Shown: piece by piece, positions 1 to 31,072 of the stretch
Layout: every line of letters begins with the position of its first letter
Position numbering within the stretch: position 1 is the first letter of the stretch
Source of the DNA: an uncultured Clostridia bacterium
GTDB lineage: Bacteria > Bacillota > Clostridia > Christensenellales > Borkfalkiaceae
NCBI GenBank assembly: GCA_947630365.1
Contig: CANRHI010000001.1
Location: forward strand, 3,927 to 67,926
Reading direction: 5' to 3'
DNA: 64,000 bases
Program-made: the position numbers and the translations under genes
The notes under the pieces: generated by a model
Databases searched by the model: none
The model's input: the letters and a program-made list of their open reading frames with translations, nothing else
What the model was told of the DNA's origin: nothing

Positions 1-174
1 GAGGTCCCATATTCCGGGCTGTATATCGTTCCCATTCGCGACGCCGATCTAAAGGAGCTTTCAGACGTCTTGAATTCCCAAAAGTTTAAGCAGTATATCT
101 GTAATGCGGGGGCATGCGTGAATGGAAAATCGAGGCGGGTGTGCCCGGAGGACATAGAAAATTATATCTATTGA
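1..174 (+). CDS. 3' end of an upstream gene that runs off the window (partial). The C-terminus loosely resembles the target-recognition (TaqI_C-like) end of N6-adenine DNA methyltransferases or type IIG enzymes.
   Basis: Frame 1 is open from base 1 to TGA at 172-174 (...GLYIVPIRDADLKELSDVLNSQKFKQYICNAGACVNGKSRRVCPEDIENYIY*). It has an LNSxxFxxY-type pattern. The stop lies 12 nt before the next ATG. It is absent from the ORF track because it has no start codon. Confidence 0.3.
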   Translation, partial: EVPYSGLYIVPIRDADLKELSDVLNSQKFKQYICNAGACVNGKSRRVCPEDIENYIY

Positions 175-186
175 GCGGAGATCGCA

Positions 187-2694
187 ATGGAAAAAGTTCA
201 GTTCGAAGTAAGTGCAAAAACGGCACGGCTGTTGGGACGCGAAAATATCAGCGACGTAGACGGTGCCATCATAGAATTGATCAAAAACTCGTATGATGCC
301 GATGCGGTATGCGTTTTTGTGCTCTTTTACTTGCCCTTTCCCAAAGTACCGAATCGCATCCCATATGAATTGGCTCACGAGGTGTTTCACGAGGGCGGCA
401 TCGAAAAACTTTTGGAATATTACGACGATACCGGGGTGGACTTCGGAAAGCGCGACGGGTTGACGAATACACAGGAAGCCCTGTTGAGCGATTTTTTATT
501 TTCAAAGAACTTCATATATGTGATAGACAACGGTTGCGGGATGGACGAGAACACATTGCGCAATGCGTGGATGAATATCGGGACAAACGATAAAGAGGAA
601 AGACGGGTCAGTCCCAAGAAAAGGGTAAAAACCGGGGCAAAGGGCATCGGACGGTTTGCTTTGGATAAGTTGTCGAAATCGACGACGGTATATACGAAGA
701 GCGAACACGATCGCCTAAAAAAGTGGGCGATCGACTGGGAACAATTTGAAACGGCAAACCTTTTGAACGAAGTAACGGCGACGATCGACGATGTCGATTC
801 GTCCTTTTATGAGTGTGTAAAAGCCGTCGCGAAAGATCGTTTTAAGACGTTCGAAAGGTACGGATGGGATACCGGGACGATCATTTCTCTTTCCCCCATC
901 AGAGAACCGTGGGACGAGGAGTACTTTGCCAAGGTCAACCGCAATTTGAGAAGCCTGTTTCCGCGCACCAACAGTTCGCAATTCGATATCTATGTGACAA
1001 ATGTGTTCTACCCGAGGTTGTCCTTCGAAAACGAGCGCTTTGCTCTCGGCGACACGGAATACGACTATCGGATCCTCGGCTCGTTTGACGGGAAAGACAC
1101 GCTCTCCGTTCAAATCTACAGAAATGAGATAGAAACCAAGAAAAAGAAGATAAGCAGGGTCATCGACGGAAAAAGTACGACGCTGCCCCTTGGCGATTTT
1201 TGGGAAAGGGAGGCGTTTCGGAAGGAGAATTTCCATCGATCGGATTTCTCAAGAGCCGTGGACTTTCGCTACTCCGCTCACGACCTGACAAAACTGGACC
1301 CGTCCGTATTAGAGGGGGTCGGAGCGTTTTCGGCGGAATTTTACTTTCTCAGGAATGCGCCCAGCCCGATAGAGATCACCAAGCCTGTAGTCACCTCCCG
1401 CCGAAAAGAGATCTTAACGAGCTTTTCCGGCATCAAGCTATACCGCGACGGCTTTAAGGTCCGCCCCTATGGGGAAGAGGGCGGCCCCGGTTTCGATTGG
1501 CTCTCCTTGGGGCAACGCGCCCAAAAAAGCCCGGCGGCGGTTTCCCACCCCGGCGGCGGATGGAGGGTAAGGACAAATCAAATTATCGGCGAAGTCCGCA
1601 TTACGAAAGACGGAAACCCCGGCTTAGAGGATATGGCGAACCGCGAGGGACTATCCATCAACGATAGTTTCAAAGTTTTTGTCAGTCTGATCCTAAAAAT
1701 GATAGAGACCTTCGAGGGCGATCGGCAATACGTCTTTCGGGAATATGCCGCATGGCTTCGGGAAGAGGAAGAGAGCCGCTCCGCGACCGATGCCGTTATC
1801 CAAGCCGCGAAAGAAAGCCAAGGAAGGACTCCCGAACGACCCAAAGAAGGGGATGGGGAACAAGCTCCTCCCCATTTCGATCCATCGAAATACGAGGACA
1901 CAATTGTCAAGTTGGACGAAGCTCGCGAGGAGGAAGAGCGCACCAACAGGACATTGATGTTATACAGCTCTGCCGGCGTTATGACCAATACGTTTTCTCA
2001 TGAATTAAGCCATATCATGACGCAGGTGGGAAGCAGAATGCAGCATTTGCGCGCCGTCATCCGAAGCAAGATCGGGGAATATGAGGGAAACGAATTTTTG
2101 AACCCCTACAAGATGATCGACGAAGCCGAGGAGGTGGATAAGCTTCTTGAAAACTGGATCGGGGTGTTGATGCATGGCATGAACGAAAGCGCCTTTGCAC
2201 GCAAATCGAATAATATTTACTCTATCGTAAGAGAGAGCCTGGAAGAATGGAGGCCGTTGCTGCGCCGCAAACTCATCGAGATCTCTCCCTTGAACGAGAT
2301 CGCCGAGATCGGGGCGTTTCAGTACACCATTTCACAAATCGATATCGTGATCATTCTGAACAATTTCTTGCTGAATGCGGCCTATTTTTTAGAGCAGTCC
2401 CACGGGAAGAAACGTCTCGTTACGATAAATTTATACGAGGAGAAGAATTCTATCGTTCTCGAAATGGAAAACAACGGGCCGCCTCTCGACGGGGTCTTTA
2501 TGAATAACCCGAACAGGATCTTCGAGGCAGGCGTCTCCACCAAGGTCACAAAAGAAGGAAAGGGCTCCGGCCTTGGCCTTTGGATCATGCAAATGTTGGT
2601 GCAAAGCAATTCCGGAAGTATTTATCCGATCGTTCCCAAGGAAGATGGTTTTGCATTGAAGATCTGTTTTCCGAAATCGGAGGGTAAATTATGA
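187..2694 (+). CDS. Fusion protein: N-terminal MORC/Hsp90-type GHKL ATPase plus C-terminal histidine-kinase core (H-box helix plus HATPase_c)
   Basis: 835 aa. N-terminal Bergerat motifs: ELIKNSYDAD (aa 30-39), DNGCGM (aa 114-119, nt 526-543) and GAKGIGRF. C-terminal motifs: H-box FSHELSH (His605, nt 1999-2001), N-box-like LNNFLLNAAYF, G1-like ENNGPP and G2 GKGSGLGLWI. Confidence 0.75.
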   Translation: MEKVQFEVSAKTARLLGRENISDVDGAIIELIKNSYDADAVCVFVLFYLPFPKVPNRIPYELAHEVFHEGGIEKLLEYYDDTGVDFGKRDGLTNTQEALLSDFLFSKNFIYVIDNGCGMDENTLRNAWMNIGTNDKEERRVSPKKRVKTGAKGIGRFALDKLSKSTTVYTKSEHDRLKKWAIDWEQFETANLLNEVTATIDDVDSSFYECVKAVAKDRFKTFERYGWDTGTIISLSPIREPWDEEYFAKVNRNLRSLFPRTNSSQFDIYVTNVFYPRLSFENERFALGDTEYDYRILGSFDGKDTLSVQIYRNEIETKKKKISRVIDGKSTTLPLGDFWEREAFRKENFHRSDFSRAVDFRYSAHDLTKLDPSVLEGVGAFSAEFYFLRNAPSPIEITKPVVTSRRKEILTSFSGIKLYRDGFKVRPYGEEGGPGFDWLSLGQRAQKSPAAVSHPGGGWRVRTNQIIGEVRITKDGNPGLEDMANREGLSINDSFKVFVSLILKMIETFEGDRQYVFREYAAWLREEEESRSATDAVIQAAKESQGRTPERPKEGDGEQAPPHFDPSKYEDTIVKLDEAREEEERTNRTLMLYSSAGVMTNTFSHELSHIMTQVGSRMQHLRAVIRSKIGEYEGNEFLNPYKMIDEAEEVDKLLENWIGVLMHGMNESAFARKSNNIYSIVRESLEEWRPLLRRKLIEISPLNEIAEIGAFQYTISQIDIVIILNNFLLNAAYFLEQSHGKKRLVTINLYEEKNSIVLEMENNGPPLDGVFMNNPNRIFEAGVSTKVTKEGKGSGLGLWIMQMLVQSNSGSIYPIVPKEDGFALKICFPKSEGKL

Positions 2695-3377
2695 AAAAAT
2701 ACACCATCGGGATCATAGACGAGGATTTGAAAGATGTGGATGCCATCAAGCGCACCATATGGTTCAACAAACCCGATCAAGTTGACGAGAAAGAGATCGA
2801 ATTCGTTGATTACAATGTTTTCGTCGAGTCGGACGACATCATAGACGAAATGGTCGAAAAGGCCCTTTGCGCGATCGTGGAGGATGCCATACGGCTCCTC
2901 ATCGTAGATTATAAGATCATTGTCAGCTCGTCTCTCATCGAAGGAAGCGAAATATTCCGGCGGCTGGAAGAAGTCGTGCCGAAATTTCCCATTGTTATCT
3001 TGTCCAATGTTCCCGACACCTGCTATGGCATAAAATTCGTGGACGCCGACAAGGTCTATGCAAAGGGACAATTTTTCAAAATAGAGGAGGGCTATTCGAA
3101 AGAAAAAACCTCAAATCTGTTCCGAAACATGGACCACTACAGAGAACGGAAGGCAGAATCGGCCTTAAAATATAAAATGTGTCTATCCGATTTGGAGAAA
3201 AACGGATATTCCGAGAAAACCTTAAAAGAACTTATCGAAGCGGAGAAATCGCTGGGCGATTTTTGTCCCTTGCAAGAATCCGAGATGGAAAAACAGTTGA
3301 ATGTCGGAGAGCTGAAAGTCGCCGTAGACCTGATCGCAAAAGCCAAAAAATTACTCGGAGAGGAAGATGAAACTTGA
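2691..3377 (+). CDS. Receiver (CheY/REC)-like domain protein with a helical C-terminal extension and no recognisable output domain
   Basis: 228 aa. Its ATG overlaps the upstream stop (ATGA at 2691-2694). It has an acidic pair IGIIDED, a candidate phospho-acceptor LLIVDYK (Asp73, nt 2907-2909), and IVILSN as a beta4 Ser/Thr position. The C-terminal ~90 aa are predicted helical. Confidence 0.5.
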   Translation: MKKYTIGIIDEDLKDVDAIKRTIWFNKPDQVDEKEIEFVDYNVFVESDDIIDEMVEKALCAIVEDAIRLLIVDYKIIVSSSLIEGSEIFRRLEEVVPKFPIVILSNVPDTCYGIKFVDADKVYAKGQFFKIEEGYSKEKTSNLFRNMDHYRERKAESALKYKMCLSDLEKNGYSEKTLKELIEAEKSLGDFCPLQESEMEKQLNVGELKVAVDLIAKAKKLLGEEDET

Positions 3378-4002
3378 GAATTTCAAATCGCACACGATAA
3401 AGAGAAGTCACTTGCCCGCAAAGAAGAATTATCGCGCCTATTTTGAGGATCTGAAAAAGGATTTCGGGGGAAGATGCGCCTATTGCAATTTGCACTTTCA
3501 AAGCATTACGACGCCCTTTGAGATCGATCATTTTATTCCGCAAAAAGAAATAAAGGACCGTAGGCCCGAGTTGATGGCCGAATACAGCAATCTGATTTTT
3601 GCCTGCAAAAAATGCAATATTGCCAAAGGAAGTCAATTTTCGGGAGATCTGTCTCTCGAAAAGCCCACGAATGAATTATTTTACGATCCTGCCGCCGTAG
3701 ATTACAATACGATTTTCTATCGGAACGAGTTGGGACTGATCGATTCGGACGACCCGAAGGGGAGGACGATGATCGGCAGTCTTAAATTATATAGGCCGAT
3801 CCACATTCTCGGGTGGCTGTGCGAAAAATTAAACTTTCTTGCGGACCGACTGGAGAAAAAAATCGATGCGGAAACCAATTCGGAGGTCAGGGAAACGTAT
3901 GAAGAGGCGCTGAACAAAATCAATCAACAATATCGTAAATTCATTCGGTTATTTATCTCGTCCTATAACGACGATCGATTCGATCTTCGTAAGGATACAT
4001 AA
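3367..4002 (+). CDS. HNH endonuclease (PtuB/TIGR02646-like stand-alone HNH)
   Basis: 211 aa. It overlaps the upstream gene by 11 nt. Motifs: CAYCN...EIDHFIP (His55, nt 3529-3531)...N...ACKKCNIAKG, i.e. CxxC...H...N...CxxC. Confidence 0.8.
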   Translation: MKLENFKSHTIKRSHLPAKKNYRAYFEDLKKDFGGRCAYCNLHFQSITTPFEIDHFIPQKEIKDRRPELMAEYSNLIFACKKCNIAKGSQFSGDLSLEKPTNELFYDPAAVDYNTIFYRNELGLIDSDDPKGRTMIGSLKLYRPIHILGWLCEKLNFLADRLEKKIDAETNSEVRETYEEALNKINQQYRKFIRLFISSYNDDRFDLRKDT

Positions 4003-4041
4003 TTCCTCAAGCATAATAACAGACAAACAGGGGGAAAAGAC

Positions 4042-15953: not shown

Positions 15954-16052
15954 ACTTGAAGTTTGCCGAAGTTTGCGGAAAATATTTACTTTTCCTTGCG
16001 GCTGTGGTATAATGAGGAAAAAGAACAAAGCCCGACGGGCAGGAGGAACAAC

Positions 16053-17087
16053 ATGATCACGCAAGAGAGCTTCGGCAAAACAGCGGATGGGAAGGAGGTG
16101 CTCGCCTTCACCCTTTCGGACGGCGCGTCGCACGTCAAAATTTTGAATTTGGGCGGCATCGTGCAGAGCATCGTCGTGCCCGACCGCAAGGGGACGCCTA
16201 CGGACGTCGCCCTCGGCTACAACACCGTGAAAGAATACGAGCAAAACGACGGATATTTGGGCGCGCTCATCGGCAGATTCGGCAACCGCATCGGCAAGGG
16301 CGAGCTCACCGTCGAGGGTAAAAAATACGCCCTCTACTGCAACGACAGGGGCAACCACCTGCACGGCGGAAAGGTGGGCTTCAACGCCAAAATTTGGGAG
16401 CATGCCATCGAGGGCGATACCCTTGTCCTCACTCTCTTCTCCCCCGACGGCGAGGAAAACTACCCCGGGAACCTCAAAGTGACGGTAAAATACAGCTTTC
16501 AGGGCGGCGCGCTCAAGATCTGCTACCATGCCGTGAGCGACAAGGCGACGGCGGTCAACCTCACCAACCACACCTATTTCAACCTGAGCGGCGAGGGCGA
16601 CGGCAGCATCCTCGACCACGAGCTCACCATCGACAGCGACTTGATCGTCCCCACGAACGAGACGCAGATCCCCGAGGGAGGGCTTCGCGCCGTGAAGGGC
16701 ACGCCGTTCGACTTCAACGAGGCAAAGCCCATCGGGCGGGACATCGGGGCGAAGGATATCGACCTTCTCCGCGGCAACGGCTACGACCACAGCTTCGTCC
16801 TGAAGGCGCCCAAGGGGGAGATGAAAGAATACGGGAGCATCCAAAGCCCCAAGACGGGGATCCGCATGCGGTGCTTCACCGATATGCCCGCCGTGCAGCT
16901 CTATACGGGCAACGGGCTTTCCCAGCAGGGAAAGACGGCGTACTACGGCAAGCGCGCGGCGTTCTGCCTCGAGACGGGGGATATTCCCAACAATGTGAAC
17001 GTGCCTGAGTACGCGGCGCTCGGCAGCTCTGTTTTGAAGGCGGGCGAGGAGTATACGCACACCTGCATCTATAAATTCGAGGCGTAA
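16053..17087 (+). CDS. galM: Aldose 1-epimerase (galactose mutarotase)
   Basis: ATG at 16053 after AGGAGG (16041-46). Motifs: GNRIG, HLHGG, NLTNHTYFNL and a CLE-type C-terminal motif. Confidence 0.85.
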   Translation: MITQESFGKTADGKEVLAFTLSDGASHVKILNLGGIVQSIVVPDRKGTPTDVALGYNTVKEYEQNDGYLGALIGRFGNRIGKGELTVEGKKYALYCNDRGNHLHGGKVGFNAKIWEHAIEGDTLVLTLFSPDGEENYPGNLKVTVKYSFQGGALKICYHAVSDKATAVNLTNHTYFNLSGEGDGSILDHELTIDSDLIVPTNETQIPEGGLRAVKGTPFDFNEAKPIGRDIGAKDIDLLRGNGYDHSFVLKAPKGEMKEYGSIQSPKTGIRMRCFTDMPAVQLYTGNGLSQQGKTAYYGKRAAFCLETGDIPNNVNVPEYAALGSSVLKAGEEYTHTCIYKFEA

Positions 17088-17147
17088 GGCGAAAAAACGC
17101 TCCCCCCGATGTTTGAAATGAACCCCAAAAGTTGGACAAAAATTTAA

Positions 17148-17998
17148 TTAGATAATTTGTGAATGAGTTCGGTATTGCACCGGGCTCATTCCATTTAGTT
17201 TGAGGGAGATCCTTGCGTTGTTGTGGTAATCGATGTATTCTTCGAGACAGCGGATGAATTCATCCGCTGTCTCGAACTTCTCACCGTAGAACATCTCTAC
17301 TTTGAGCCGTCCGAAAAAGTTCTCCATCGCACCGTTATCCATGCAGTTTCCCTTGCGGGACATGCTTTGGATGATATTGTGTTCTTTCAGCTGTCTTTGG
17401 CAGCTCTCATGTTGGTATTGCCACCCTTGGTCTGAATGGAAGATAGGGCGTGCTCCCTTCGGCAGCTTCTCAAATAATCCTTTGAGCATTTCTCTTATTT
17501 GTTCCATGTTCGGACTCTTTGAAATAGAATAGGCAATGATCTCTCTGTTGTATAAATCCATGACCGGAGAGAAATACACTTTCTCGTCACCGATATTGAA
17601 TTGGGTTATGTCGGTAGCCATCTTTTCGAACGGCTTCTCCGCGTGGAAGTCTCTCGCAAGAAGATCGTCCGCGATCTTTCCCACTTCTCCCTTGTAAGAA
17701 TGGTATTTCTCGTTCTTGCGCCGTTTCCCTTTCAAACAGAGGCTCTTCATGAGCTTATATACCGTCTTATGGTTCAGAACATAGCCTTTTGCTCTAAGCG
17801 AAAGCTCTATCCTGCGATATCCGTATCTGCCCTTGTTCTCTTGAAAGATCTTCGTGATTGCCGATTTCTCTTCGGCATACTTATCTTTTTCGCTTCGTTT
17901 GAGATGATAATAATATGTGCTGCGAGCGAGACCTGAAATCTTCAATAATATTTTCAGCGGAAATCTCTGCCTTAGTTCCAGAACTACTTGCGCTTTTT
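17148..17998 (-). CDS. IS3 transposase OrfB (rve/DDE integrase core), read in the -1 frame from the slippery site
   Basis: The -1 frame is open from AAAAAG (17993-17998) and reads KAQVVLELRQRFPLKILLKISGLARSTYYY... DDE motifs: ATDITQF, HSDQGWQY and NGAMENFFGRLK. The track starts it only at 17945, which is a TTG. Confidence 0.85.
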
Positions 17999-18400
17999 GC
18001 CACTCTTTTGCTCTTCCGCTCGTACTAAGGCATCTAATTTTTTTAGGTATTCATTCTCCGCCTCAACGTATTCCAACCGCTCCCTCAGCCGCCTATTCTC
18101 CGCTATGAGGTCATTCTCGATTTCCTTGTCCAACGGTTCCTTCCGCGGTCTACCCTTGCCCTTTCTCCCTCGACGTTCTTCCATAAACCCCGCCACTCCT
18201 TCTTCCAAGTATATGCGCTTCCAACGTTTGAGACTGCACCGGTACAGATCTTCTTCCGTGCGACCATTGGTGCCCCAATACTTCCGCACCGTCTCTCTTT
18301 GGCTCAAACCGTTTTCTCGCATATCCATTATAACAGCTATTTTGAATTCCGGCGAGTATTTTGTGTTTTTTTTCCTTCTCTTTTCCATAAAAATATGCAC
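17984..18400 (-). CDS. IS3 transposase OrfA (HTH DNA-binding part)
   Basis: 138 aa. It has an HTH and a leucine-zipper-like region, and ends in ...GKKRK* across an AAAAAG slippery run. Confidence 0.88.
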   Translation of the reverse strand: MHIFMEKRRKKNTKYSPEFKIAVIMDMRENGLSQRETVRKYWGTNGRTEEDLYRCSLKRWKRIYLEEGVAGFMEERRGRKGKGRPRKEPLDKEIENDLIAENRRLRERLEYVEAENEYLKKLDALVRAEEQKSGKKRK

Positions 18401-23907: not shown

Positions 23908-25404
23908 TCAAACGGATCTTGTGAGCGTTTCGTACACCTTCACCATGGCGAAGGTGTCGAGCGCGCAGTATTTCAAAAGGTCGTGCTCTGCCTTTGCCCG
24001 CTGTTCGGCGGGCATATTTTTGAGCTTCGGGAAGAGCTCCTTTGCCTCGCTTCCGTTGTGGACGCCCTCCAATTTGTGATAGTCGAGCTCGGGGTCGTCG
24101 GGGAAGAGGGCAGGAAGAACGCTTTTGATGGAAAACGACCCGCCCATGGCACGGATATAATAGTATCCCTTTTGGAAGGGGACGAGCAGATCTTTGATGT
24201 TCTCCTCGATCTTGAGAAGATGCTCGGAGAGATCGGGGAAGATCGCCGCGAGCTCCTTGATGCGCCCGCATTCGAACCCCTTATTATAGACGAGCACGCA
24301 GACGTCGTCGGGAATGTCGGAAACAAGCCGCTCGGCAAGGGCACGCCTCGGGTCCTCCTCACTTCGCCCCAAAAATTCACGGTGTTCAAGCGTCCCGTTC
24401 GGCTCCCGCAAAATGTGCAGGGAATACTGCACGGGGATCTGTTGATAGGGCTTGGTGCCGACATATTGCGGAATGACGGGTTGCACCGACTCGAAATCGA
24501 GAAAATAGAGGGGATAGGTGAGCGTTTGCAAAAATTCCTCAATGCCCTTTTTGTCGATATGGGCGCCCTTGTCCTCGAGGGCATACTCCACCTGACGGCG
24601 GCGGAGCTCGTTGAGCTCGCTCCCATCCTTCAAGACGTCCTCAAAACCGCAGATGCCCCTTTGATACAGCGCAAGCTTTTTCTTGAAGGCAAGGTCGTAC
24701 AGTCCAAAGACGGACGGCGAAGGCAGATCCCGCGTACAATATCCGAAGAAGGCGCAGGGATAGGGCTTGTTGCACGCCATAGATAAATCGATCGTCGGCT
24801 CTTTCGCCGACGCCATGACCTTTTCCGCCTCCTTCAGGCTCTTTTCTACGTCGGCAAGCTCTTCCTCGACGAGGGGCGTGACCTCGGTGATCTTGAAATA
24901 TTTTTGAAGGTCGAGGACGCCGTCAAAGACATAGCTCGTATCGATCGTGACGAGGTAGACGTTTTTCACCCTCACGCCGCATTTTTCGAGGACATATTTT
25001 TGGAAAGAGGTATCGACGATATAGACGTGTTTGTCGGGCGAGGCGCTGCTCTTGACTTCATAGATATCGTAGCCGTCGCCGTTCTTTTTGAGAATATCGA
25101 CGGCGCAATACAGCCCTTGATGGCCGAAGGACGCTTCGCAGATGATTTCCCTTCCCTCGGCGAGACATTGCTTGGTGAGCTCTTTCATCCTCTCGAGGTC
25201 GAGGCTGCCGTCGGGCTTATACGAAGTCACTTCGACGTATTCGCCGAACAGCCCCATCGCAAGATCGCCCACTTCGTTGCCCGCCGCAAAGCGCGCCTGC
25301 GTCTCTTCGTCGACGACGCATTCCTCGGGCTTATACTTTTTGAGCCACGGAATTTTGGGACACTGCTTGAAATCGCAATACTTGGATTTGCTGAAATAGA
25401 ACAT
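23908..25404 (-). CDS. DUF2779-family protein (Cas4-like PD-(D/E)XK N-terminus plus RNase H/DnaQ-like C-terminus)
   Basis: ATG at 25404 after GGGAGA. N-terminus MFYFSKSKYCDFKQCPKIPWLKKY; also YEVKS, YPLYFLDFES, YNKGFECGRIKELA and YCALDTFAMV. Confidence 0.7.
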   Translation of the reverse strand: MFYFSKSKYCDFKQCPKIPWLKKYKPEECVVDEETQARFAAGNEVGDLAMGLFGEYVEVTSYKPDGSLDLERMKELTKQCLAEGREIICEASFGHQGLYCAVDILKKNGDGYDIYEVKSSASPDKHVYIVDTSFQKYVLEKCGVRVKNVYLVTIDTSYVFDGVLDLQKYFKITEVTPLVEEELADVEKSLKEAEKVMASAKEPTIDLSMACNKPYPCAFFGYCTRDLPSPSVFGLYDLAFKKKLALYQRGICGFEDVLKDGSELNELRRRQVEYALEDKGAHIDKKGIEEFLQTLTYPLYFLDFESVQPVIPQYVGTKPYQQIPVQYSLHILREPNGTLEHREFLGRSEEDPRRALAERLVSDIPDDVCVLVYNKGFECGRIKELAAIFPDLSEHLLKIEENIKDLLVPFQKGYYYIRAMGGSFSIKSVLPALFPDDPELDYHKLEGVHNGSEAKELFPKLKNMPAEQRAKAEHDLLKYCALDTFAMVKVYETLTRSV

Positions 25405-25421
25405 GATTTTTTCTCCCGTGT

Positions 25422-26555
25422 TTACTCTTCTTCGTCGTCCTCGGGCTCCTCGGGCATTGCGTCGAGGGAGTAGATATACTCTTCGGCCTCGGGATGGGCC
25501 TTGATCCAGTCGATCAATTTTTGCTTGTGTGCCACTTTCCAATCGTTGCTGAGATAGTATTCTTTCCCCTTGATCTTCAGCGGTGCGGCGTAATACCGCC
25601 TTCCGCCCTTTTCGGCGAGAACGGGCTCGGTGATCCCGAAAATCACCTTACTCTCCTCAATGGTCGTTAATTTCTCGATCTCCTCATCGGGGACAAGCCC
25701 GCTCTCCAACATATTCCTCAGCGCCGATTTGGCGATTTGTCCGACGAGGAGTGCGCCGTAGGCTGCCGCGTCGGGGACCGCAGCGGTGGGATTGGGAAGA
25801 GCGGAGATCGCGGCGCCCTTGCCCTTCTTCCCCGTTGTTCCCTTCCTACCCGTCCCTTTCGCGCTTACGGGCGGGAGAAAGTAACCGAGCAAGTTGAGCA
25901 ACTGATAGGCTCTCATGAAGAGTTCGGCGGTATCGTGTACCTTGCCGCTCACGATGCGGATGGGGTCGATGACTTCGGTGGAAAAGGCGTTGTTGCCGAT
26001 GATCCTAAAGGTGTAATTCAGTCCCGCCCTATGGAAAAAGTCGTTGAGGAAGTCGATGCGGGACGGCAACAGATTGTACACACCGGGGGAAATTGAGGGG
26101 GATGCGAAAACGATCTCCGCCTCTTCCGCTTCGAAGTATCCATACAGACTCAATGCCGTGCGGACACATTTTTCAACCACTTTGCGGTCAGAGACGTTGC
26201 CGCCGACGCCGTGATAGTTCAGTCCGTTTTCATGAAATGCGACGTCGACGGCATAGTACACGGGTTTACCTTCGCGCAGAGCGAAGCCGATGGCGTCGCA
26301 TTCTCCCTGCTTGATAACTTGATGGAATTTTTTCTCGAGAGCCGCTTTTGGGTCTTTCTCGGCATCGATGTCGAAAATGATTTGATGAAACTTGAATTCA
26401 AATTCCGTTCGGACGTCTTTGAACAGATCTTGCAGCTCCGCCACTCTCTTCAGCGTCCAAGCGGGAGAGGCTTTCCAATTATTTTGGACGATCAAGCACT
26501 CCTTCACATGCCGAAGCCACGAGTAAAACAGGGATTCCGCTATTTCAATTTTCAT
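25422..26555 (-). CDS. Hypothetical protein (possible restriction-endonuclease-like N-terminal domain) co-operonic with the DUF2779 gene
   Basis: 377 aa, ending 17 nt upstream of the DUF2779 start. It has E...GECDAIGF...YYAVDVAFHE acidic beta-strand motifs, a K/G-rich linker, a C-terminal RYYAAPLKIKGKEYYLSNDW module and an acidic tail. Confidence 0.6.
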   Translation of the reverse strand: MKIEIAESLFYSWLRHVKECLIVQNNWKASPAWTLKRVAELQDLFKDVRTEFEFKFHQIIFDIDAEKDPKAALEKKFHQVIKQGECDAIGFALREGKPVYYAVDVAFHENGLNYHGVGGNVSDRKVVEKCVRTALSLYGYFEAEEAEIVFASPSISPGVYNLLPSRIDFLNDFFHRAGLNYTFRIIGNNAFSTEVIDPIRIVSGKVHDTAELFMRAYQLLNLLGYFLPPVSAKGTGRKGTTGKKGKGAAISALPNPTAAVPDAAAYGALLVGQIAKSALRNMLESGLVPDEEIEKLTTIEESKVIFGITEPVLAEKGGRRYYAAPLKIKGKEYYLSNDWKVAHKQKLIDWIKAHPEAEEYIYSLDAMPEEPEDDEEE

Positions 26556-26582
26556 AAAATACCCTCCGTAAAATTCATTTTT

Positions 26583-26611
26583 ATTGTACTACGCAAATGT
26601 TTTTTCGTCAA
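26583..26611 (-). promoter_or_regulatory. Sigma-70-type promoter of the hypothetical/DUF2779 operon
   Basis: The minus strand reads TTGACG-17 nt-TACAAT, about 30 nt upstream of the ATG at 26555. Confidence 0.65.
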
Positions 26612-26654
26612 TATCTCTCTTGAAAATAGTACCGAAGGAACACACCCTCAAAGG

Positions 26655-27434
26655 CTATGTCTCTTGGATGTGAAGGTCGAAGAACCGCTTGAGGGCCGCG
26701 GCCTCGGGGTAGGTGATCTTCAGATTTTTCTGCAAAAATGCCGTCGTGATCTTCTCTTCGGGGTGACTGCGCACGAGCGAAAGGGCTGCGCTCCGAAGAT
26801 GGGCGGGGATGCGTCTTTTCGGGGCTTCGGTCGGCACTCGGTCGAGCGCATACATGAGCTCTTCTTCGCTCGCGCAGGCGGCGGCGACTTCCGAAAAAGG
26901 CGTGTCCCCCTTGAGAAGAACGACGTAGCGCTCGATATTTCGGGTGTACCGCGGATGGCGCAGGCGGCGGATCCCCCAGGTGATGTGCTCCTCGAGCTCG
27001 GTCGGGTAAATTTGAAGCTCTTCGCAGATCTCGTCGCAGTTTTTTCTCTCGCAGAAGAGCTTCAAAATGCACTCGCGCTCCATGCGTGGAAAGGCATTCA
27101 GGTTGTTTTTCACCCGTTCCTCCGCGCCCGCTTTGACGAGCAGCGGCCCGCCCAAGATCTCTTCGTAAAGATTTTGCGGCCATGCCTTTTCGCACATTCT
27201 CTTGCAATAGTTTTGGAAGGCGGGGATCTCCTCTTCGAACTTGCAAAGGCGCTCTTTCGCAATGTCGTAGAGCGCTTTCTTCTCCCTTTCGTCGCAGGGA
27301 AGCTCGTCGTAAGAGAGCGCGTAGAGGCGGGAGAGCTCTTCGCCCATTGCCTGCTCCCGCCGTCTGCAATAGTACTGCGCGCTCATGCACTCAAGCTCGC
27401 GTTCTCTCAGTTTCAAAGTAATTTCTTCGTTCAT
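26655..27434 (-). CDS. DNA-binding protein: sigma-70 region-4-like HTH plus C-terminal FtsK-gamma-like winged helix
   Basis: ATG at 27434 after AGGAGGA, overlapping the LRR gene stop (ATGA). ERECILKLFCERKNCDEICEELQIYPTELEEHITWGIRRL resembles sigma region 4. ITTAFLQKNLKITYPEAAALKRFFD resembles the FtsK gamma motif. Confidence 0.5.
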   Translation of the reverse strand: MNEEITLKLRERELECMSAQYYCRRREQAMGEELSRLYALSYDELPCDEREKKALYDIAKERLCKFEEEIPAFQNYCKRMCEKAWPQNLYEEILGGPLLVKAGAEERVKNNLNAFPRMERECILKLFCERKNCDEICEELQIYPTELEEHITWGIRRLRHPRYTRNIERYVVLLKGDTPFSEVAAACASEEELMYALDRVPTEAPKRRIPAHLRSAALSLVRSHPEEKITTAFLQKNLKITYPEAAALKRFFDLHIQET

Positions 27435-28297
27435 ACATTTCCTCCTCGATCTCTTCTCTTGCAGTTGAATTTGATCTTGTAGCCGTCGAGCCGGCCGCCC
27501 GCTTTGTCGATCTCGATTGCGTTCCATTCCTCTTCGGTGCCCCCGAAGAGAATGCAACCGTGGTCATCTTCATATTCGGTAAGCGGCGGAAACGCATTGC
27601 GGCCGATATATTTCACGGACTTCGGGACATAGAAGTCGCGCGGGAAGCAGTATTTGTATGTTTCTTCTTTGATGATGAGGACGCTCTCGGGCAGATCGCA
27701 CACGGATGCGACTTGGGAAAAGACGTTGCTCTCGATGACTTTAAGGTCTTTGGGAAGTTTGGTGATGGAAAGCTCGGTGCAGCCCGCGAACGCCGCTTCG
27801 CCGATGGAGACGACGGAGTCGGGGATCTCCAATTCACGGAGAGAGGAACAGCCCGTGAACGCCGCCTCGCCGATGGTCTTTAACGTTTCGGGCAGGCGGA
27901 CGAGCTCGAGAGACGTACAGCCCGAAAAGGCGCCGCTGCCGATGGAGAGGAGCCCTTGCCCGAAGGCGCTGTAGACCAAAACAGCTTTGAGATTCGGGCA
28001 GCCCGCGAATGCCCCGTCGAGAATTTGGGCTGCGCCGAAGATCAAGATGCCTTCGAGAGCCTCATTTCCCGCAAAGGCGAAACTGCCGATGGTATCGCAA
28101 TCGGTGATGCGGAGATGTTTGCATTTGCCCCGATAGCGCATGAGGACATTTTTCCACTCCTCAAGATCGGGCCAAAGACCCGCATGGCCGACTTGGACGT
28201 AATCGCGGACGGCGCACTCGGCGAGATCGTCCGTCGAAAGGTCCCACGACGCGGTGCACTTTTTGGCGCGTTCTTCGATGTTTCTTTTTTCGATCAT
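27431..28297 (-). CDS. Cytoplasmic BspA-type leucine-rich-repeat (LRR_5) protein
   Basis: ATG at 28297 after AAGGAGAAT. No signal peptide. Repeated ...IG..AF.GC..L..(I/V/L).(I/L)P... units (FAGNEAL, FAGCPNL, FSGCTSL, FTGCSSL, FAGCTEL). Confidence 0.75.
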   Translation of the reverse strand: MIEKRNIEERAKKCTASWDLSTDDLAECAVRDYVQVGHAGLWPDLEEWKNVLMRYRGKCKHLRITDCDTIGSFAFAGNEALEGILIFGAAQILDGAFAGCPNLKAVLVYSAFGQGLLSIGSGAFSGCTSLELVRLPETLKTIGEAAFTGCSSLRELEIPDSVVSIGEAAFAGCTELSITKLPKDLKVIESNVFSQVASVCDLPESVLIIKEETYKYCFPRDFYVPKSVKYIGRNAFPPLTEYEDDHGCILFGGTEEEWNAIEIDKAGGRLDGYKIKFNCKRRDRGGNV

Positions 28298-28426
28298 ATC
28301 ATTCTCCTTTTTGATTTTTTCTCGATTTTGCACTTCGGTTTTTTGTGTGTTCTCTCTTTGGATACCCCTTTTTTCGCGGTAGCTTTCACGATTTTTGCAA
28401 TGCGCCCGCCCGCGAACGTCGCACGC

Positions 28427-28435
28427 AGTATAGCA
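28427..28435 (-). promoter_or_regulatory. Extended -10 element TGCTATACT upstream of the LRR operon
   Basis: The minus strand reads TATATGCTATACTGCG, the same 9-mer class as in the 50-bp array and at 29198-29206. Confidence 0.45.
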
Positions 28436-28534
28436 TATAGGCGTAAAAAAATGGGACGTCAAGTCCCATATGTCTGAAATACAAAATTGCAGATGTGAAA
28501 AATTTATCTCCGCGCCGCCCTTTCCCCAAACGTT

Positions 28535-29131
28535 CTACTGCTCAAATTCTTCGGGATAGACGCCGATATACCTTCCATCTCCGAGGAGCGCGATTACTTT
28601 TGCTCCCCCTCGGAGATAAAAGTAGAAATCTTCCACGATCGCAAGATAGCGGTAGAAGGTCGTGCGGGCGATGTGAAATTCGGCACAAAACTTGTTTCTT
28701 TCGACGCCGTCCTCCAATCTGTCGTGCAGGGCGAGAAGCGCGAGATATTTGCGGTTTGAGGGAGTGTCGTGATAGGTGTTGCCGTCCTCGCTGTAGATCC
28801 CGTAGTATTCCCGCATGATCGCAAGCAGCCTGCGGAAATTGGAGTGACTTATCTGCCGCATTTTGCAAAAGGACTCGGGATCCACATGGTCGGGGTCTCC
28901 GTCCGCTTCGAGAGCGAAAAAGAAGAGATTGCGTATTTTTTCGATCGTCGGGGTCTCTTTGATGTGCGCGCGCTCCCCTGCGCGCGTATAGTAAATGTTT
29001 GTTTCGGTGCGATAGGAGAAATCCTCGCCATCGGATATGTCCCAACGGTTGTCCCGATCGTCGCAAACCACATCATGATCTTTGGAGCATTTTTGCTTGG
29101 GATCCGCTTTCAAATACCTTCTCTTTCCCAT
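28535..29131 (-). CDS. Hypothetical protein with two HTH-like segments (putative regulator)
   Basis: 198 aa. QISHSNFRRLLAIMREYY and FHIARTTFYRYLAIVEDFY resemble HTH recognition helices. It is divergent from the repeat array. Confidence 0.5.
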   Translation of the reverse strand: MGKRRYLKADPKQKCSKDHDVVCDDRDNRWDISDGEDFSYRTETNIYYTRAGERAHIKETPTIEKIRNLFFFALEADGDPDHVDPESFCKMRQISHSNFRRLLAIMREYYGIYSEDGNTYHDTPSNRKYLALLALHDRLEDGVERNKFCAEFHIARTTFYRYLAIVEDFYFYLRGGAKVIALLGDGRYIGVYPEEFEQ

Positions 29132-29197
29132 ATCCCTTCTACCGTTTCACCGTTTGACCGTTTTACCGCTATCCTTTCCGACGCGGTTTTCGCAAGT

Positions 29198-29206
29198 AGT
29201 ATAGCA
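29198..29206 (-). promoter_or_regulatory. Extended -10 element TGCTATACT upstream of the HTH gene
   Basis: The minus strand reads TTTTATGCTATACTACTTG, about 65 nt upstream of the ATG at 29131. Confidence 0.45.
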
Positions 29207-29276
29207 TAAAACAAATCGGAATACAAGTGCAGAAATCGACGAAGCCATTCGGGGGGGGGTAGACAGCACGAAACGC

Positions 29277-29650
29277 GTGTGCTATAATGGAGGCGGAAAT
29301 TCGTCCCGGCGCAAAACGGGGGGTGCATGTGCTATAATGGGGGCGCAAATTCGTCCCGGCGCGAAATGGGGAGGGCGTGTGCTATACTGGGAGCGCAAAT
29401 TCGTCACGGCGCAAAACGGGGAGCGTGTGTGCTATAATGGAGGCGCAAATTCGTCCCGGCGCGAAATGGGGGGTGCGTGTGCTATAATGGGGGCGGAAAC
29501 TCGTCCTGACGCAAAACGGGGAGCGCATGTGCTATAATGGGGGCGGAAATTCGTCCTGCCGCGAAATGGGGAGTGCGTGTGCTATAATAGGGGCGGAAAT
29601 TCGTCCTGCCGCGAAATGGGGATGATGTGTGCTATAATGGGGGCGCAACA
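29277..29650 (+). repeat. Exact 50-bp-period tandem array (7 full units plus a partial eighth), each unit carrying GTGTGCTATAATGG (extended -10 consensus)
   Basis: GCTATAATGG (GCTATACTGG at 29381, GCTATAATAG at 29581) starts at 29281, 29331, 29381, 29431, 29481, 29531, 29581 and 29631. Unit consensus: GCTATAATGGGGGCG(G/C)AAATTCGTCC(C/T)G(G/C)CGC(A/G)AAA(C/T)GGGGAG(T/C)GCGTGT. The period is not a multiple of 3. The array ends 49 nt before the nuclease ATG. Confidence 0.95.
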
Positions 29651-29698
29651 AAAGGAAACGTTCGGCGCAAGCCGTTCAAAAAATACAAGGAGGAACAT

Positions 29699-31051: not shown

Positions 31052-31072
31052 CTCCAACCAAGGGAGAACACT

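What the first reader, a model, noticed from the sequence alone, without database searches (positions are those of the whole stretch)
1..4002. Coupled GHKL-ATPase/histidine-kinase, receiver-like and HNH nuclease genes: a candidate two-component-wired DNA-targeting defence system
**Seen in sequence.**
- Three genes are packed with overlapping stop and start codons: ATGA at 2691-2694, and an 11-nt overlap at 3367-3377.
- The first start is only 12 nt after the stop of the upstream gene, so they appear to be one transcription unit.
- Gene 1 has an apparently complete histidine-kinase core (H-box His605, N, G1 and G2 boxes).
- Gene 2 has CheY-like strand signatures with a candidate acceptor Asp73 but no output domain.
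- Gene 3 is a stand-alone CxxC...H...N...CxxC HNH nuclease.

**Established knowledge.**
- Detocs is a defensive kinase / buffer-receiver / receiver-effector trio.
- Septu pairs an ATPase with a PtuB-type HNH.
- Prokaryotic MORC-type GHKL ATPases are linked to restriction-modification loci.

**Inference.**
- This operon mixes those three ideas in an arrangement I do not recognise as a named system: the kinase carries a MORC-like ATPase in place of a sensor, and the nuclease has no receiver domain.
- The block is visibly AT-richer than the flanking core genes.
Basis: partly seen in the sequence, partly recalled or inferred. Interest (0 to 1): 0.85.

Follow-up and report, generated by a model that had tools for sequence, protein, structure and literature searches.

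The report
Ambrosia-type restriction-like phage defence cassette
The three genes are real and belong with a DNA methyltransferase gene cut off by the window edge, forming a distant gut-Firmicute relative of the recently named 'Ambrosia' anti-phage system, so the arrangement already has a name.

Summary
Three translationally coupled genes lie at 187-2694, 2691-3377 and 3367-4002. They encode a MORC-like GHKL ATPase fused to a histidine-kinase core, a divergent receiver protein, and a PtuB-like HNH nuclease.

The unit therefore has four genes.

This four-gene unit is conserved in about 70 of 80 related loci. These span Bacillota, Bacteroidota, Treponema, Streptococcus mitis, Alphaproteobacteria plasmids and methanogenic archaea.

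The architecture and gene order match 'Ambrosia' (AbrA-AbrB-AbrC-AbrD). Ambrosia was validated against phages in Pseudomonas aeruginosa in a 2025 bioRxiv preprint.
- g1 resembles AbrB (E 2e-41).
- g3 resembles AbrD (E 6e-13).
- A profile of g2 orthologues hits AbrC and aligns Asp73 with the mutated Asp60.

The kinase His605, the receiver Asp73/Thr-Ser105/Lys125 and the HNH residues are conserved in 74-77 of 75-77 family members.

The general theme (paraMORC-kinase plus receiver next to restriction-modification genes) was also predicted computationally in 2021.

Verdict: a new, distant member of a known kind. The mechanism is still open, namely whether the phosphorelay gates the nuclease directly or through transcription.

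The parts
1..174 (+). C-terminal 57 codons of an N6-adenine DNA methyltransferase (AbrA-equivalent); the rest lies outside the window
   Evidence: Translation. A near-identical contig, L001, extends the ORF to 411 aa with an NPPY motif and a Pfam Eco57I hit, E 7e-16. The C-terminus matches the family consensus. A homologous gene is present in 74 of 81 loci.
175..186 (+). 12-nt spacer with a GGAG ribosome-binding site between the methyltransferase stop and the g1 start
   Evidence: Sequence.
187..2694 (+). g1: paraMORC-type GHKL ATPase fused to a histidine-kinase core (AbrB homologue), 835 aa
   Evidence: Pfam hits. BLASTP against the N-terminal 399 aa of AbrB gives E 2e-41. AlphaFold model has pLDDT 84. 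Foldseek matches MORC2 and HK853. There are 426 family clusters at E<=1e-30.
187..1656 (+). g1 N-terminal module: Bergerat ATP-binding fold (E30/N34/D37, D114-N-G-x-G-M, K148-TGAKGIGRFAL) plus a beta-rich transducer/clamp domain (aa 1-490)
   Evidence: The motifs are invariant in 76-77 of 77 sequences. Foldseek aligns about 560 columns to MORC2-DNA structures 9cdh/9cdj, TM 0.46-0.47. N34 equals AbrB N40, whose N40A mutant loses defence.
1663..2172 (+). g1 long helices and DHp-like helical hairpin carrying the H-box (TNTFSHELSH; His605 at 1999-2001)
   Evidence: Secondary structure. H605-E606 is invariant in 77 of 77 sequences. A profile match to HK853 begins in DHp helix 2.
2203..2673 (+). g1 C-terminal catalytic (CA) GHKL domain: N-box N726/N730; G1 box with Asn762 in place of Asp; G2 box G795-x-G797-L
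   Evidence: Pfam HATPase_c. Alignment to HK853, E 4.6e-9, places 'EnnG' on 'EDNG'. Position 762 is N in 67 and D in 10 of 77 sequences.
2691..3377 (+). g2: stand-alone divergent receiver protein (AbrC-equivalent), 228 aa; receiver domain aa 1-130 (Asp73 at 2907-2909) plus an all-helical C-terminal region aa 134-221
   Evidence: AlphaFold model. Foldseek top hits are RcsB, FrzS and other receivers. D73 is conserved in 75/75, T/S105 in 74/75 and K125 in 74/75. A family HMM hits AbrC at 19.8 bits and aligns D73 to D60.
3367..4002 (+). g3: PtuB-like HNH nuclease (AbrD homologue), 211 aa; HNH core aa 37-89 (His55 at 3529-3531) plus a helical C-terminal half
   Evidence: Pfam HNH. PADLOC PtuB, E 1.5e-19. 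BLASTP against AbrD gives E 6e-13 and aligns H55 with H60. C37, C40, H55, N75, C80, C83, N84 and K87 are invariant in 76/76.

Best explanation
This is a Bacillota member of the Ambrosia family of restriction-modification-like anti-phage systems.

**Composition.** It is a self-contained, horizontally acquired operon of four genes:
- an N6-adenine DNA methyltransferase (mostly outside the window);
- a soluble paraMORC-type GHKL ATPase fused to a histidine-kinase core (g1);
- a stand-alone receiver protein (g2);
- a PtuB-like HNH nuclease (g3).

**Proposed mechanism.**
1. The N-terminal MORC-like ATPase/clamp of g1 takes the place of a sensor domain. It engages DNA or a phage cue through ATP-driven dimerisation.
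2. This signal travels through the long helices to the DHp/CA core.
3. The core autophosphorylates His605 and passes the phosphate to Asp73 of g2.
4. Phosphorylated g2 licenses the HNH nuclease to cut invading DNA.
5. I favour direct, protein-level control through the conserved helical C-terminal parts of g2 and g3, rather than transcriptional control.
6. The methyltransferase marks DNA. Whether that mark protects self DNA or is itself what the nuclease reads is open.

**Shown here:** gene structure, domain folds, homology to AbrB/AbrC/AbrD, four-gene synteny, and conservation of every phosphorelay and nuclease catalytic residue.

**Taken from the preprint for the Pseudomonas homologue:** defence phenotype, and requirement for all genes, for the N-terminal ATPase Asn, for the receiver Asp and for the HNH His.

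**Inferred:** what is sensed, the level at which the receiver acts, and the role of methylation.

**My sub-probabilities:**

| Claim | Probability |
|---|---|
| Ambrosia-family homologue | 0.9 |
| Genuine His-to-Asp relay | 0.75 |
| Post-translational gating | 0.45 |
| Transcriptional gating | 0.3 |
For: **Operon structure**
- The genes are translationally coupled.
- The upstream gene is an Eco57I-type NPPY methyltransferase.

**Synteny**
- Among 81 loci, the methyltransferase is present in 74, g2 in 71 and g3 in 74. Most misses lie at contig ends.
- The same four genes occur in permuted order (kinase, receiver, HNH, methylase) in Bacteroidota and on Salipiger and Bacteroides finegoldii plasmids.

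**Homology to Ambrosia**
- Sequences came from the preprint's Table S1.
- g1 against AbrB gives E 2e-41.
- g3 against AbrD gives E 6e-13.
- The g2-family HMM hits AbrC (19.8 bits, E 9e-8) and aligns D73 to D60.
- The gene order A-B-C-D is identical.
- A Cro/C1-type HTH gene sits directly upstream of the methylase in the closest genomic relatives, L004 and L077, as AbrR does.

**Folds**
- g1 combines a MORC2-like N-terminal half with an HK853-like DHp-CA.
- g2 is a receiver plus a helical tail.

**Purifying selection on relay and nuclease residues**
- Conserved across 75-77 sequences.
- g1 and g2 identities co-vary (Spearman 0.72), as expected for a cognate kinase-receiver pair.

**Against a DNA-binding output on the receiver**
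- Neither g2 nor AbrC has any HTH Pfam hit.
- The g2 model has no beta wing.

**Experimental evidence for the homologue**
- Preprint section read.
Against: - No experiment exists on this locus or on any Bacillota member.
- Identity to the Pseudomonas proteins is low (27-28%). g2 against AbrC is not significant pairwise.
- The methyltransferase is only weakly similar to AbrA (11 bits, SAM/NPPY core only). It belongs to another Pfam family: Eco57I here, against the N6_Mtase/MmeI_Mtase listing for AbrA.
- The preprint's authors favour transcriptional control. They report infection-induced reporter expression and a wHTH in AbrC.
- The CA-domain G1-box Asp, which normally contacts adenine, is Asn in this clade. 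Kinase activity is therefore not guaranteed.
- The XRE regulator is not conserved across the family. I found an XRE-type HTH gene directly upstream of the methylase in 3 loci and a winged-helix gene in 3 more, out of about 60 examined. It cannot be checked for this locus because the window starts inside the methylase.
- The authors' own HMM score cut-offs could not be applied.
Confidence: 0.6

Rival explanations
1. Same family, but the relay works as the preprint proposes. The kinase senses infection and phosphorylates the receiver. The receiver then acts as a transcription factor, together with an upstream XRE repressor, and switches on expression of the methylase and nuclease. These are otherwise kept off because the nuclease cuts the methylated DNA.
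For: - Preprint data for Pseudomonas Ambrosia: reporters replacing abrA or abrD are induced on infection; D60A abolishes defence; AbrA pre-methylation does not protect phage.
- XRE-type genes sit directly upstream of the methylase in the nearest relatives L004 and L077.
Against: - Neither g2 nor AbrC shows a DNA-binding domain in Pfam.
- The g2 model's C-terminal part is purely helical with low confidence at the end, and has no wing.
- The receiver gene lies inside the operon it would have to switch on and overlaps both neighbours.
- Most family loci lack an adjacent HTH gene.
- Reporter induction could come from the XRE protein alone.
Confidence: 0.28
2. A conventional, constitutively armed ATP-dependent restriction-modification system. 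The methyltransferase protects host sites. A complex of the GHKL protein, the receiver-like protein and HNH cuts unmethylated sites. The kinase-like and receiver-like parts are structural relics without phosphotransfer.
For: - A methyltransferase is always linked.
- The g1 N-terminus weakly resembles BbrUII/HgiDII-type restriction enzymes (NCBIfam 44 bits; PADLOC REase_II).
- DefenseFinder labels AbrB a type II REase (preprint Table S1).
- paraMORC proteins were predicted to be R-M components (PMC2292703).
- The G1-box Asp is replaced by Asn.
Against: - His605-Glu606, Asp73, Thr/Ser105 and Lys125 are conserved in 74-77 of 75-77 sequences. That is hard to explain without phosphotransfer.
- AbrC D60A abolishes defence, and AbrA methylation does not protect phage in the homologue.
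- The NCBIfam score is far below the family cut-off (44 against 550).
Confidence: 0.1
3. One reading: a new, unnamed defence system that independently combines Detocs-like signalling, a Septu nuclease and a MORC ATPase.
For: - No PADLOC or NCBIfam model recognises the system as a whole.
- g2 is unannotated everywhere.
Against: - Homologous components in the same order as Ambrosia.
- An earlier computational description of the theme exists.
- No Detocs components were found.
Confidence: 0.03

Closest known systems
Ambrosia (AbrR-AbrA-AbrB-AbrC-AbrD), van den Berg et al., bioRxiv 10.1101/2025.09.30.679545
   Same: - Same gene order: N6-adenine methylase, HATPase_c_3 + HATPase_c kinase-like protein, ~210-230 aa receiver with helical tail, ~210 aa PtuB-like HNH.
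- g1/AbrB, g3/AbrD and (by profile) g2/AbrC are homologous.
- The residues mutated in the preprint are conserved here: AbrB N40 = N34, AbrC D60 = D73, AbrD H60 = H55.
   Different: - Only 27-28% identity.
- Reported only in Gammaproteobacteria, whereas this clade is in Bacillota, Bacteroidota, Spirochaetes and archaea.
- The methylase is of the Eco57I type and barely similar to AbrA.
- g1 has a roughly 45-residue insertion between the N-box and G1 box of the first ATPase domain.
- The XRE gene is not conserved in the family and cannot be seen for this locus.
HEF_HK / Response_reg_2 'two-component-like' elements next to R-M systems (Bellieny-Rabelo et al. 2021, PMC8011034)
   Same: - Soluble HATPase_c_3 + DHp + HATPase_c protein, adjacent to a stand-alone divergent receiver.
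- Linked to DNA methylases and HNH or Vsr nucleases.
- Proposed descent from paraMORCs.
   Different: - Neither Pfam model (PF19191, PF19192) hits g1, g2 or their families. PF19191 is present in the library, because it weakly hits an Acinetobacter relative.
- That family is mostly proteobacterial and linked to C5-cytosine methylases and Vsr.
- It has no experimental data.
paraMORC1-5 GHKL ATPases of restriction-modification operons (Iyer, Abhiman and Aravind 2008, PMC2292703)
   Same: - N-terminal GHKL plus transducer module in R-M-like operons.
- paraMORC1 was noted with a C-terminal extension and HNH neighbours.
- The MORC2-like fold was confirmed here.
   Different: The kinase core and receiver partner were not described there. 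I could not assign g1 to a numbered paraMORC family.
Septu (PtuA ATPase + PtuB HNH) and retron I-A PtuAB
   Same: g3 is PtuB-like over HNH plus the helical C-terminal half (PADLOC E 1.5e-19). The nuclease is paired with an ATPase.
   Different: - No PtuA or ABC-type ATPase.
- g3 scores below the NCBIfam PtuB cut-off (30 against 150).
- A methylase, kinase core and receiver are present, which Septu lacks.
Detocs (DtcA kinase, DtcB buffer receiver, DtcC receiver-effector)
   Same: A His-Asp relay is used for phage defence (from my knowledge of Millman et al. 2022 and Rousset et al. 2023).
   Different: - No PADLOC Dtc hit.
- One receiver rather than two.
- The effector has no receiver domain.
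- The sensor is a MORC-type ATPase.
- A methylase is linked.
VcSduA / paraMORC3-Shedu (PMC12137116)
   Same: A GHKL ATPase with a clamp-like middle domain controls a nuclease in a validated defence system.
   Different: It is a single polypeptide with a PD-(D/E)xK nuclease. It has no kinase core, receiver or methylase.

Membership tests
Ambrosia | AbrB-like protein: N-terminal HATPase_c_3 ATPase plus C-terminal kinase-type HATPase_c, homologous to AbrB | tested here: met
   Pfam hits. BLASTP against AbrB residues 1-399 gives E 2e-41, 27% identity over g1 residues 6-490. The AbrB C-terminus was not available.
Ambrosia | AbrC-like stand-alone receiver with the phospho-acceptor Asp (D60) | tested here: met
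   Pairwise comparison was not significant. An HMM of 73 positional orthologues hits AbrC at 19.8 bits (E 9e-8 among 4 sequences) and aligns D73 to D60. The Asp is conserved in 75/75, including AbrC. The receiver fold is supported.
Ambrosia | AbrD-like HNH nuclease | tested here: met
   BLASTP E 6e-13, 28% identity over 173 aa, H55 aligned with H60. Catalytic and zinc residues are invariant in 76/76, including AbrD.
Ambrosia | AbrA: N6-adenine DNA methyltransferase immediately upstream, gene order A-B-C-D | tested here: met
   NPPY motif and Pfam Eco57I. The gene ends 12 nt before g1. Similarity to AbrA is only weak and covers the core, so it is the same enzyme class but orthology is not shown.
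Ambrosia | AbrR: HipB-like XRE regulator at the head of the cluster | not testable with these tools
   The window starts inside the methylase, and no longer contig was found. In relatives, an HTH_26/HTH_3 gene is present in L004, L077 and (partial) L002 but absent in most loci.
Ambrosia | Authors' HMM bit-score thresholds (AbrA 100, AbrB 500, AbrC 150, AbrD 200) | not testable with these tools
   The HMMs are not available. Given 27-28% identity, these thresholds would probably not be reached.
Ambrosia | Anti-phage activity needing all genes | not testable with these tools
   Experimental; known only for the Pseudomonas system.
HEF_HK / Response_reg_2 two-component-like system (Pfam PF19191, PF19192) | Match to the HEF_HK model in the kinase-like protein | tested here: not met
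   No hit at E<=10 in g1 or in 13 relatives. The model is present in the library.
HEF_HK / Response_reg_2 two-component-like system (Pfam PF19191, PF19192) | Match to the Response_reg_2 model in the partner protein | tested here: not met
   No hit at E<=10 in 28 family members; 18 weakly hit Response_reg instead.
Classical two-component histidine kinase core | H-box His on a DHp helix, followed by a CA domain with N, G1 and G2 boxes | tested here: inconclusive
   The H-box SHE is invariant, and the N and G2 boxes are invariant. The fold matches HK853 DHp-CA. However, the G1 Asp is Asn in 67 of 77 sequences, including this one.
CheY-like receiver | (beta/alpha)5 fold with an acidic pair after beta1, Asp after beta3, Thr/Ser after beta4 and Lys after beta5 | tested here: met
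   The model and Foldseek hits are receiver domains. D10/E11, D73, S105 (T in most) and K125 are conserved. Pfam Response_reg is below threshold for the window protein.
MORC / paraMORC ATPases | N-terminal GHKL ATPase with intact motifs, followed by a transducer (S5-like) domain, in an R-M context | tested here: met
   HATPase_c_3 hit. Motifs invariant. Foldseek to MORC2 over about 560 columns, TM 0.46-0.47. Linked methylase. An S5 fold as such was not verified separately.
Septu | PtuA ABC-type ATPase adjacent to PtuB | tested here: not met
   There is no such gene in the operon. The PtuA model hit on g3 covers only the nuclease-like part of a fusion model.
Detocs | DtcA/DtcB/DtcC trio with a receiver-effector fusion | tested here: not met
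   No Dtc models among the PADLOC hits for any of the three proteins. The nuclease lacks a receiver domain.
BbrUII/HgiDII restriction enzymes (NCBIfam NF050001) | Full-length match above the curated cut-off | tested here: not met
   44 bits against a cut-off of 550; only aa 108-270 align.

The most novel reading that the evidence does not exclude
The His-to-Asp phosphorelay does not regulate transcription. Instead it directly licenses a PtuB-like HNH nuclease. A MORC-type DNA clamp serves as the input, and the receiver's conserved helical tail serves as the protein-protein output. That would be the first restriction-like nuclease gated by two-component phosphotransfer. The family, so far reported only from Gammaproteobacteria, would in fact be a pan-prokaryotic mobile module reaching gut Firmicutes, Bacteroidota, spirochaetes and methanogens.
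Probability: 0.4. Interest if true: 0.7.

Novelty: new member of a known kind. Interest (0 to 1): 0.4.

Why it matters
**Extended host range.** The recently named Ambrosia system was reported only from Gammaproteobacteria. This work shows its four-gene core in many phyla and in archaea:
- 189 relatives among GTDB species genomes;
- 426 clusters at 50% identity with E<=1e-30.

**What the comparison adds.**
- Conservation evidence that the kinase His, which the preprint does not report mutating, and the whole receiver pocket are under selection.
- The XRE regulator and the gene order are variable accessories.
- No DNA-binding output is detectable on the receiver. This argues for testing direct nuclease gating against the preprint's transcriptional model.

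**For annotation.** Genomes currently label these genes 'sensor histidine kinase / hypothetical protein / HNH endonuclease / N-6 DNA methylase'. Such loci could be recognised as one defence unit.

Tried and rejected
- **Library scans of g2.** Pfam, PADLOC and NCBIfam gave nothing. The receiver call rests on structure and family-level weak hits.
- **PF19191 and PF19192 membership.** Tested and rejected.
- **g2 against AbrC.** Pairwise BLAST and hhalign against the single AbrC sequence were not significant. Only the broader 73-sequence HMM worked.
- **Upstream sequence of this locus.** Exact-protein look-ups for g1, g3 and the downstream hydrolase returned only contigs of 1.6-4 kb. The XRE question stays open.
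- **Conserved upstream regulator.** Clustering upstream ORFs across loci found no conserved gene.
- **Conserved flanking genes or defence-island context.** A Pfam scan of 134 flanking ORFs showed no recurrent neighbour. It found only scattered recombinases, integrases, a relaxase and a few other R-M genes. I cannot claim a defence-island setting.
- **PDB sequence search.** Nothing for g1 as a single sequence. Only a marginal Cas9 HNH hit for g3.
- **Viral contigs.** Only 5 relatives, so the system is not typically phage-borne.
- **P0382.** This 747-aa protein was checked as a possible full-length AbrB and is not AbrB.
- **Terminator and promoter scans.** Nothing informative. There is no terminator between g3 and the next gene.

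Full report
**1. Observation**

The + strand of window 1-4002 carries three ORFs:
- g1, 187-2694 (835 aa);
- g2, 2691-3377 (228 aa);
- g3, 3367-4002 (211 aa).

- ATGA at 2691-2694 lies behind a GGAGGG ribosome-binding site.
- An 11-nt overlap at 3367-3377 lies behind GGAGAGGAAG.
- An upstream ORF stops at 172-174, 12 nt before the g1 ATG.

His605, Asp73 and His55 are at the stated positions. The block has 43-50% G+C against 58-65% for the following genes, and it is the lowest stretch in the 64-kb window. The next gene, a lipoprotein-type alpha/beta hydrolase, starts 40 nt after g3 with no terminator between them.

**2. Domain content**

*g1*
- The first ATPase domain matches Pfam HATPase_c_3 (aa 109-199, E 2e-14).
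- The C-terminal domain matches kinase-type HATPase_c/HATPase_c_5 (aa 715-829).
- NCBIfam gives only sub-threshold hits: EnvZ/CpxA-type kinases over the C-terminal third, and BbrUII/HgiDII restriction enzymes over aa 108-270.
- An AlphaFold model built on 51 homologues has pLDDT 84 and pTM 0.80. It shows an N-terminal Bergerat fold, a beta-rich middle domain (to about aa 490), two very long helices, a helical hairpin carrying the H-box, and a CA domain.
- Foldseek matches the last ~260 residues to DHp-CA cores (HK853, CpxA, YycG; target TM about 0.6). It matches the first ~560 residues to human MORC2 ATPase-DNA structures (TM 0.46-0.47) and to Hsp90.
- A profile of the family hits HK853 at E 4.6e-9. 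In that alignment the G1-box 'EDNG' of HK853 corresponds to 'ENNG' here.

*g2*
- It has no hit in Pfam, PADLOC or NCBIfam.
- 18 of 28 relatives weakly hit Response_reg (best E 5e-5), and none hits Response_reg_2.
- Its model (pLDDT 82) is a (beta/alpha)5 domain followed by an all-helical tail, aa 134-221.
- The best PDB matches are receiver domains: RcsB, FrzS, 3grc and 2rdm, with target TM 0.60-0.70.

*g3*
- It is an HNH nuclease (Pfam E 1.7e-9).
- It is most similar to PADLOC PtuB models over almost its whole length (E 1.5e-19).
- It scores below the NCBIfam PtuB and TIGR02646 cut-offs.

**3. The missing fourth gene**

A metagenomic contig, L001, is identical to the window apart from one indel. 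It extends the upstream ORF to 411 aa with an IIGNPPY motif and a Pfam Eco57I methylase hit, E 7e-16.

Full-length relatives are about 475 aa. One of them, from L004, matches Eco57I at E 3e-20. The window's C-terminus follows the family consensus, whereas L001 carries a 1-nt deletion. The unit is therefore methylase-g1-g2-g3.

**4. Conservation elsewhere**

- g1 has thousands of full-length relatives.
- In a library of 50%-identity representatives, 426 clusters score E<=1e-30.
- A scan of one genome per GTDB species found 189 relatives, and 80 loci were fetched.
- phmmer with the four window proteins found the methylase in 74, g2 in 71 and g3 in 74 of 81 loci. Most misses are at contig ends or in the most divergent loci.

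The order methylase-kinase-receiver-HNH holds in these groups:
- Oscillospiraceae, Lachnospiraceae and other Clostridia;
- Bacilli, including Streptococcus mitis;
- Selenomonadaceae, Treponema, Bacteroides and a CAG 'Mycoplasma';
- Methanimicrococcus hongohii.

Distant Bacteroidota (29-30% identity), and plasmids of Salipiger profundus and Bacteroides finegoldii, have the order kinase-receiver-HNH-methylase. RefSeq annotates these genes generically.

Flanking genes are not conserved, and only 5 relatives occur in viral contigs. I take this to indicate a self-contained mobile cassette rather than a fixed island component.

**5. Catalytic residues**

Counts come from 75-77 family members, including the distant ones and AbrC/AbrD.

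| Protein | Residues | Conservation |
|---|---|---|
| g1, first ATPase domain | E30, N34, D37 | 76 of 77 |
| g1, first ATPase domain | D114, G116, G118 | 77 of 77 |
| g1, kinase core | H605-E606, N726/N730, G795/G797 | invariant |
| g1, G1 box | position 762 | Asn in 67, Asp in 10 |
| g2 | D73 | 75/75 |
| g2 | Thr/Ser105 | 74/75 |
| g2 | K125 | 74/75 |
| g2 | beta1 pair | acidic |
| g3 | C37, C40, H55, N75, C80, C83, N84, K87 | 76/76 |

Identities of g1 and g2 to the window proteins co-vary across loci (Spearman 0.72). This is the pattern expected of a working kinase-receiver pair and an active nuclease.

**6. Prior knowledge**

- Iyer, Abhiman and Aravind (2008) placed paraMORC GHKL ATPases in restriction-modification operons. 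They noted paraMORC1 with a C-terminal extension and HNH neighbours (PMC2292703).
- Bellieny-Rabelo et al. (2021) described soluble HATPase_c_3 + HEF_HK + HATPase_c proteins next to stand-alone Response_reg_2 receivers. These lay in R-M neighbourhoods, mostly with C5 methylases, Vsr or HNH_2, and there were no experiments (PMC8011034).
- van den Berg et al. (bioRxiv, Sept 2025) validated 'Ambrosia' in P. aeruginosa. Its genes are AbrR (XRE), AbrA (N6-adenine methylase), AbrB (kinase/HSP90-like ATPase), AbrC (receiver) and AbrD (HNH).
  - All genes are required.
  - Point mutations in the predicted functional domains abolish defence. AbrC D60A is stated explicitly in the text. AbrB N40A and AbrD H60A appear among the mutant constructs.
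  - Reporters are induced on infection.
  - AbrA pre-methylation does not protect phage.
  - The system was found only in Gammaproteobacteria.

**7. Homology test against Ambrosia**

The preprint's Table S1 prints AbrC and AbrD in full and the first ~400 residues of AbrA and AbrB.

- g1 against AbrB: E 2e-41, 27% identity over g1 residues 6-490. N34 aligns with the mutated N40. There is a roughly 45-residue insertion in g1 between the N-box and the G1 box.
- g3 against AbrD: E 6e-13 over 173 residues, with H55 on H60.
- g2 against AbrC: not significant pairwise or by hhalign. An HMM of 73 positional orthologues, including the Bacteroidota ones, scores AbrC at 19.8 bits (E 9e-8 for four targets). 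It aligns D73 with D60 and extends through the helical tail.
- The methylase-family HMM matches AbrA only weakly, over the SAM-binding/NPPY core.
- Cro/C1-type HTH genes sit 1-20 nt upstream of the methylase in the nearest genomic relatives (L004: HTH_26, E 2e-19; L077: HTH_3, E 7e-11). Three other loci have a winged-helix gene there, and most have none.
- For this locus the region lies outside the window and could not be recovered.

**8. Relation to HEF_HK**

Neither PF19191 nor PF19192 hits the window family. PF19191 is present in the library, because it weakly hits an Acinetobacter relative.

Other branches of the same superfamily pair the kinase-like protein with different partners:
- a 340-aa response regulator and dcm on Campylobacter conjugative plasmids;
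- a 637-aa hypothetical protein in A. baumannii.

The window family and Ambrosia form the branch with a short receiver, a PtuB-like HNH and an N6-adenine methylase.

**9. Mechanism**

*Shown here:* architecture, folds, synteny and residue conservation.

*From the preprint, for the homologue:* defence, and the need for the first ATPase site, the receiver Asp and the HNH His.

*Inferred:* the MORC-like clamp is the input, and His605 to Asp73 transfer is the signal.

I favour direct gating of the nuclease, for four reasons:
- Neither g2 nor AbrC shows any HTH in Pfam.
- The g2 tail is helical, without a wing.
- The receiver is translationally coupled to both neighbours.
- From my own knowledge of Septu PtuAB, PtuB-type nucleases are normally held in check by a partner ATPase.

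The authors' transcriptional model remains a serious rival. The Asn at the G1 box is a caveat for kinase activity in this clade. The role of methylation is unresolved.

**10. Verdict**

The system is not unnamed. It is a distant Bacillota member of the Ambrosia kind, and the theme was predicted earlier.

Interest is moderate, for three reasons. The knowledge is at preprint level. The host range shown here is far wider than reported. The comparative data point to a testable alternative mechanism.

Noticed in passing
window 136-137 versus L001 about 1216: The near-identical metagenomic contig L001 (ERZ27249196, about 3x coverage) has a 1-nt deletion in a G-run. The deletion frameshifts the last ~15 codons of the methyltransferase. 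The window copy matches the family consensus C-terminus.
   Followed up: partly
L082 312-998 (ERZ27249685), equivalent to window 2691-3377: In another sample the receiver gene is called as two ORFs (144 + 82 aa), while the g3 protein it encodes is identical to the window's. The 144-aa form is a cluster with 3 member sequences (P0122). This may be an inactivated receiver or an assembly error.
   Followed up: no
window 313-510 (g1 aa 43-108): g1 and its close relatives carry an insertion of roughly 45 residues, relative to Pseudomonas AbrB, between the N-box and the G1 box of the first ATPase domain. The insertion is modelled as three short helices. More distant relatives (773-779 aa) appear to lack it as well.
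   Followed up: partly
window 2470-2472 (g1 Asn762): The G1-box Asp of the kinase-type ATP-binding domain is Asn in 67 of 77 family members and Asp in the other 10. This could mean altered nucleotide binding in this clade.
   Followed up: partly
L073-L081, L085, L086: In Bacteroidota, and on Salipiger and Bacteroides finegoldii plasmids, the same four genes occur in the permuted order kinase-receiver-HNH-methylase.
   Followed up: yes
L093 (Campylobacter jejuni pCJ14980A) and 42 other Campylobacter plasmid records; L092 (A. baumannii): Other branches of the same kinase-like superfamily have different partners. On Campylobacter conjugative plasmids the partners are a 340-aa response regulator and a convergent dcm cytosine methylase. 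In A. baumannii the partner is a 637-aa hypothetical protein.
   Followed up: partly
window 4003-4041: Only 39 nt, with no terminator-like hairpin, separate the low-GC cassette from the next gene. That gene is a lipoprotein-type alpha/beta hydrolase of 61% G+C, so read-through transcription is likely.
   Followed up: partly
window 16001-18000 and 24001-32000: Two further stretches have lower G+C (51-55%) than the 58-65% background. They could be other acquired segments.
   Followed up: no
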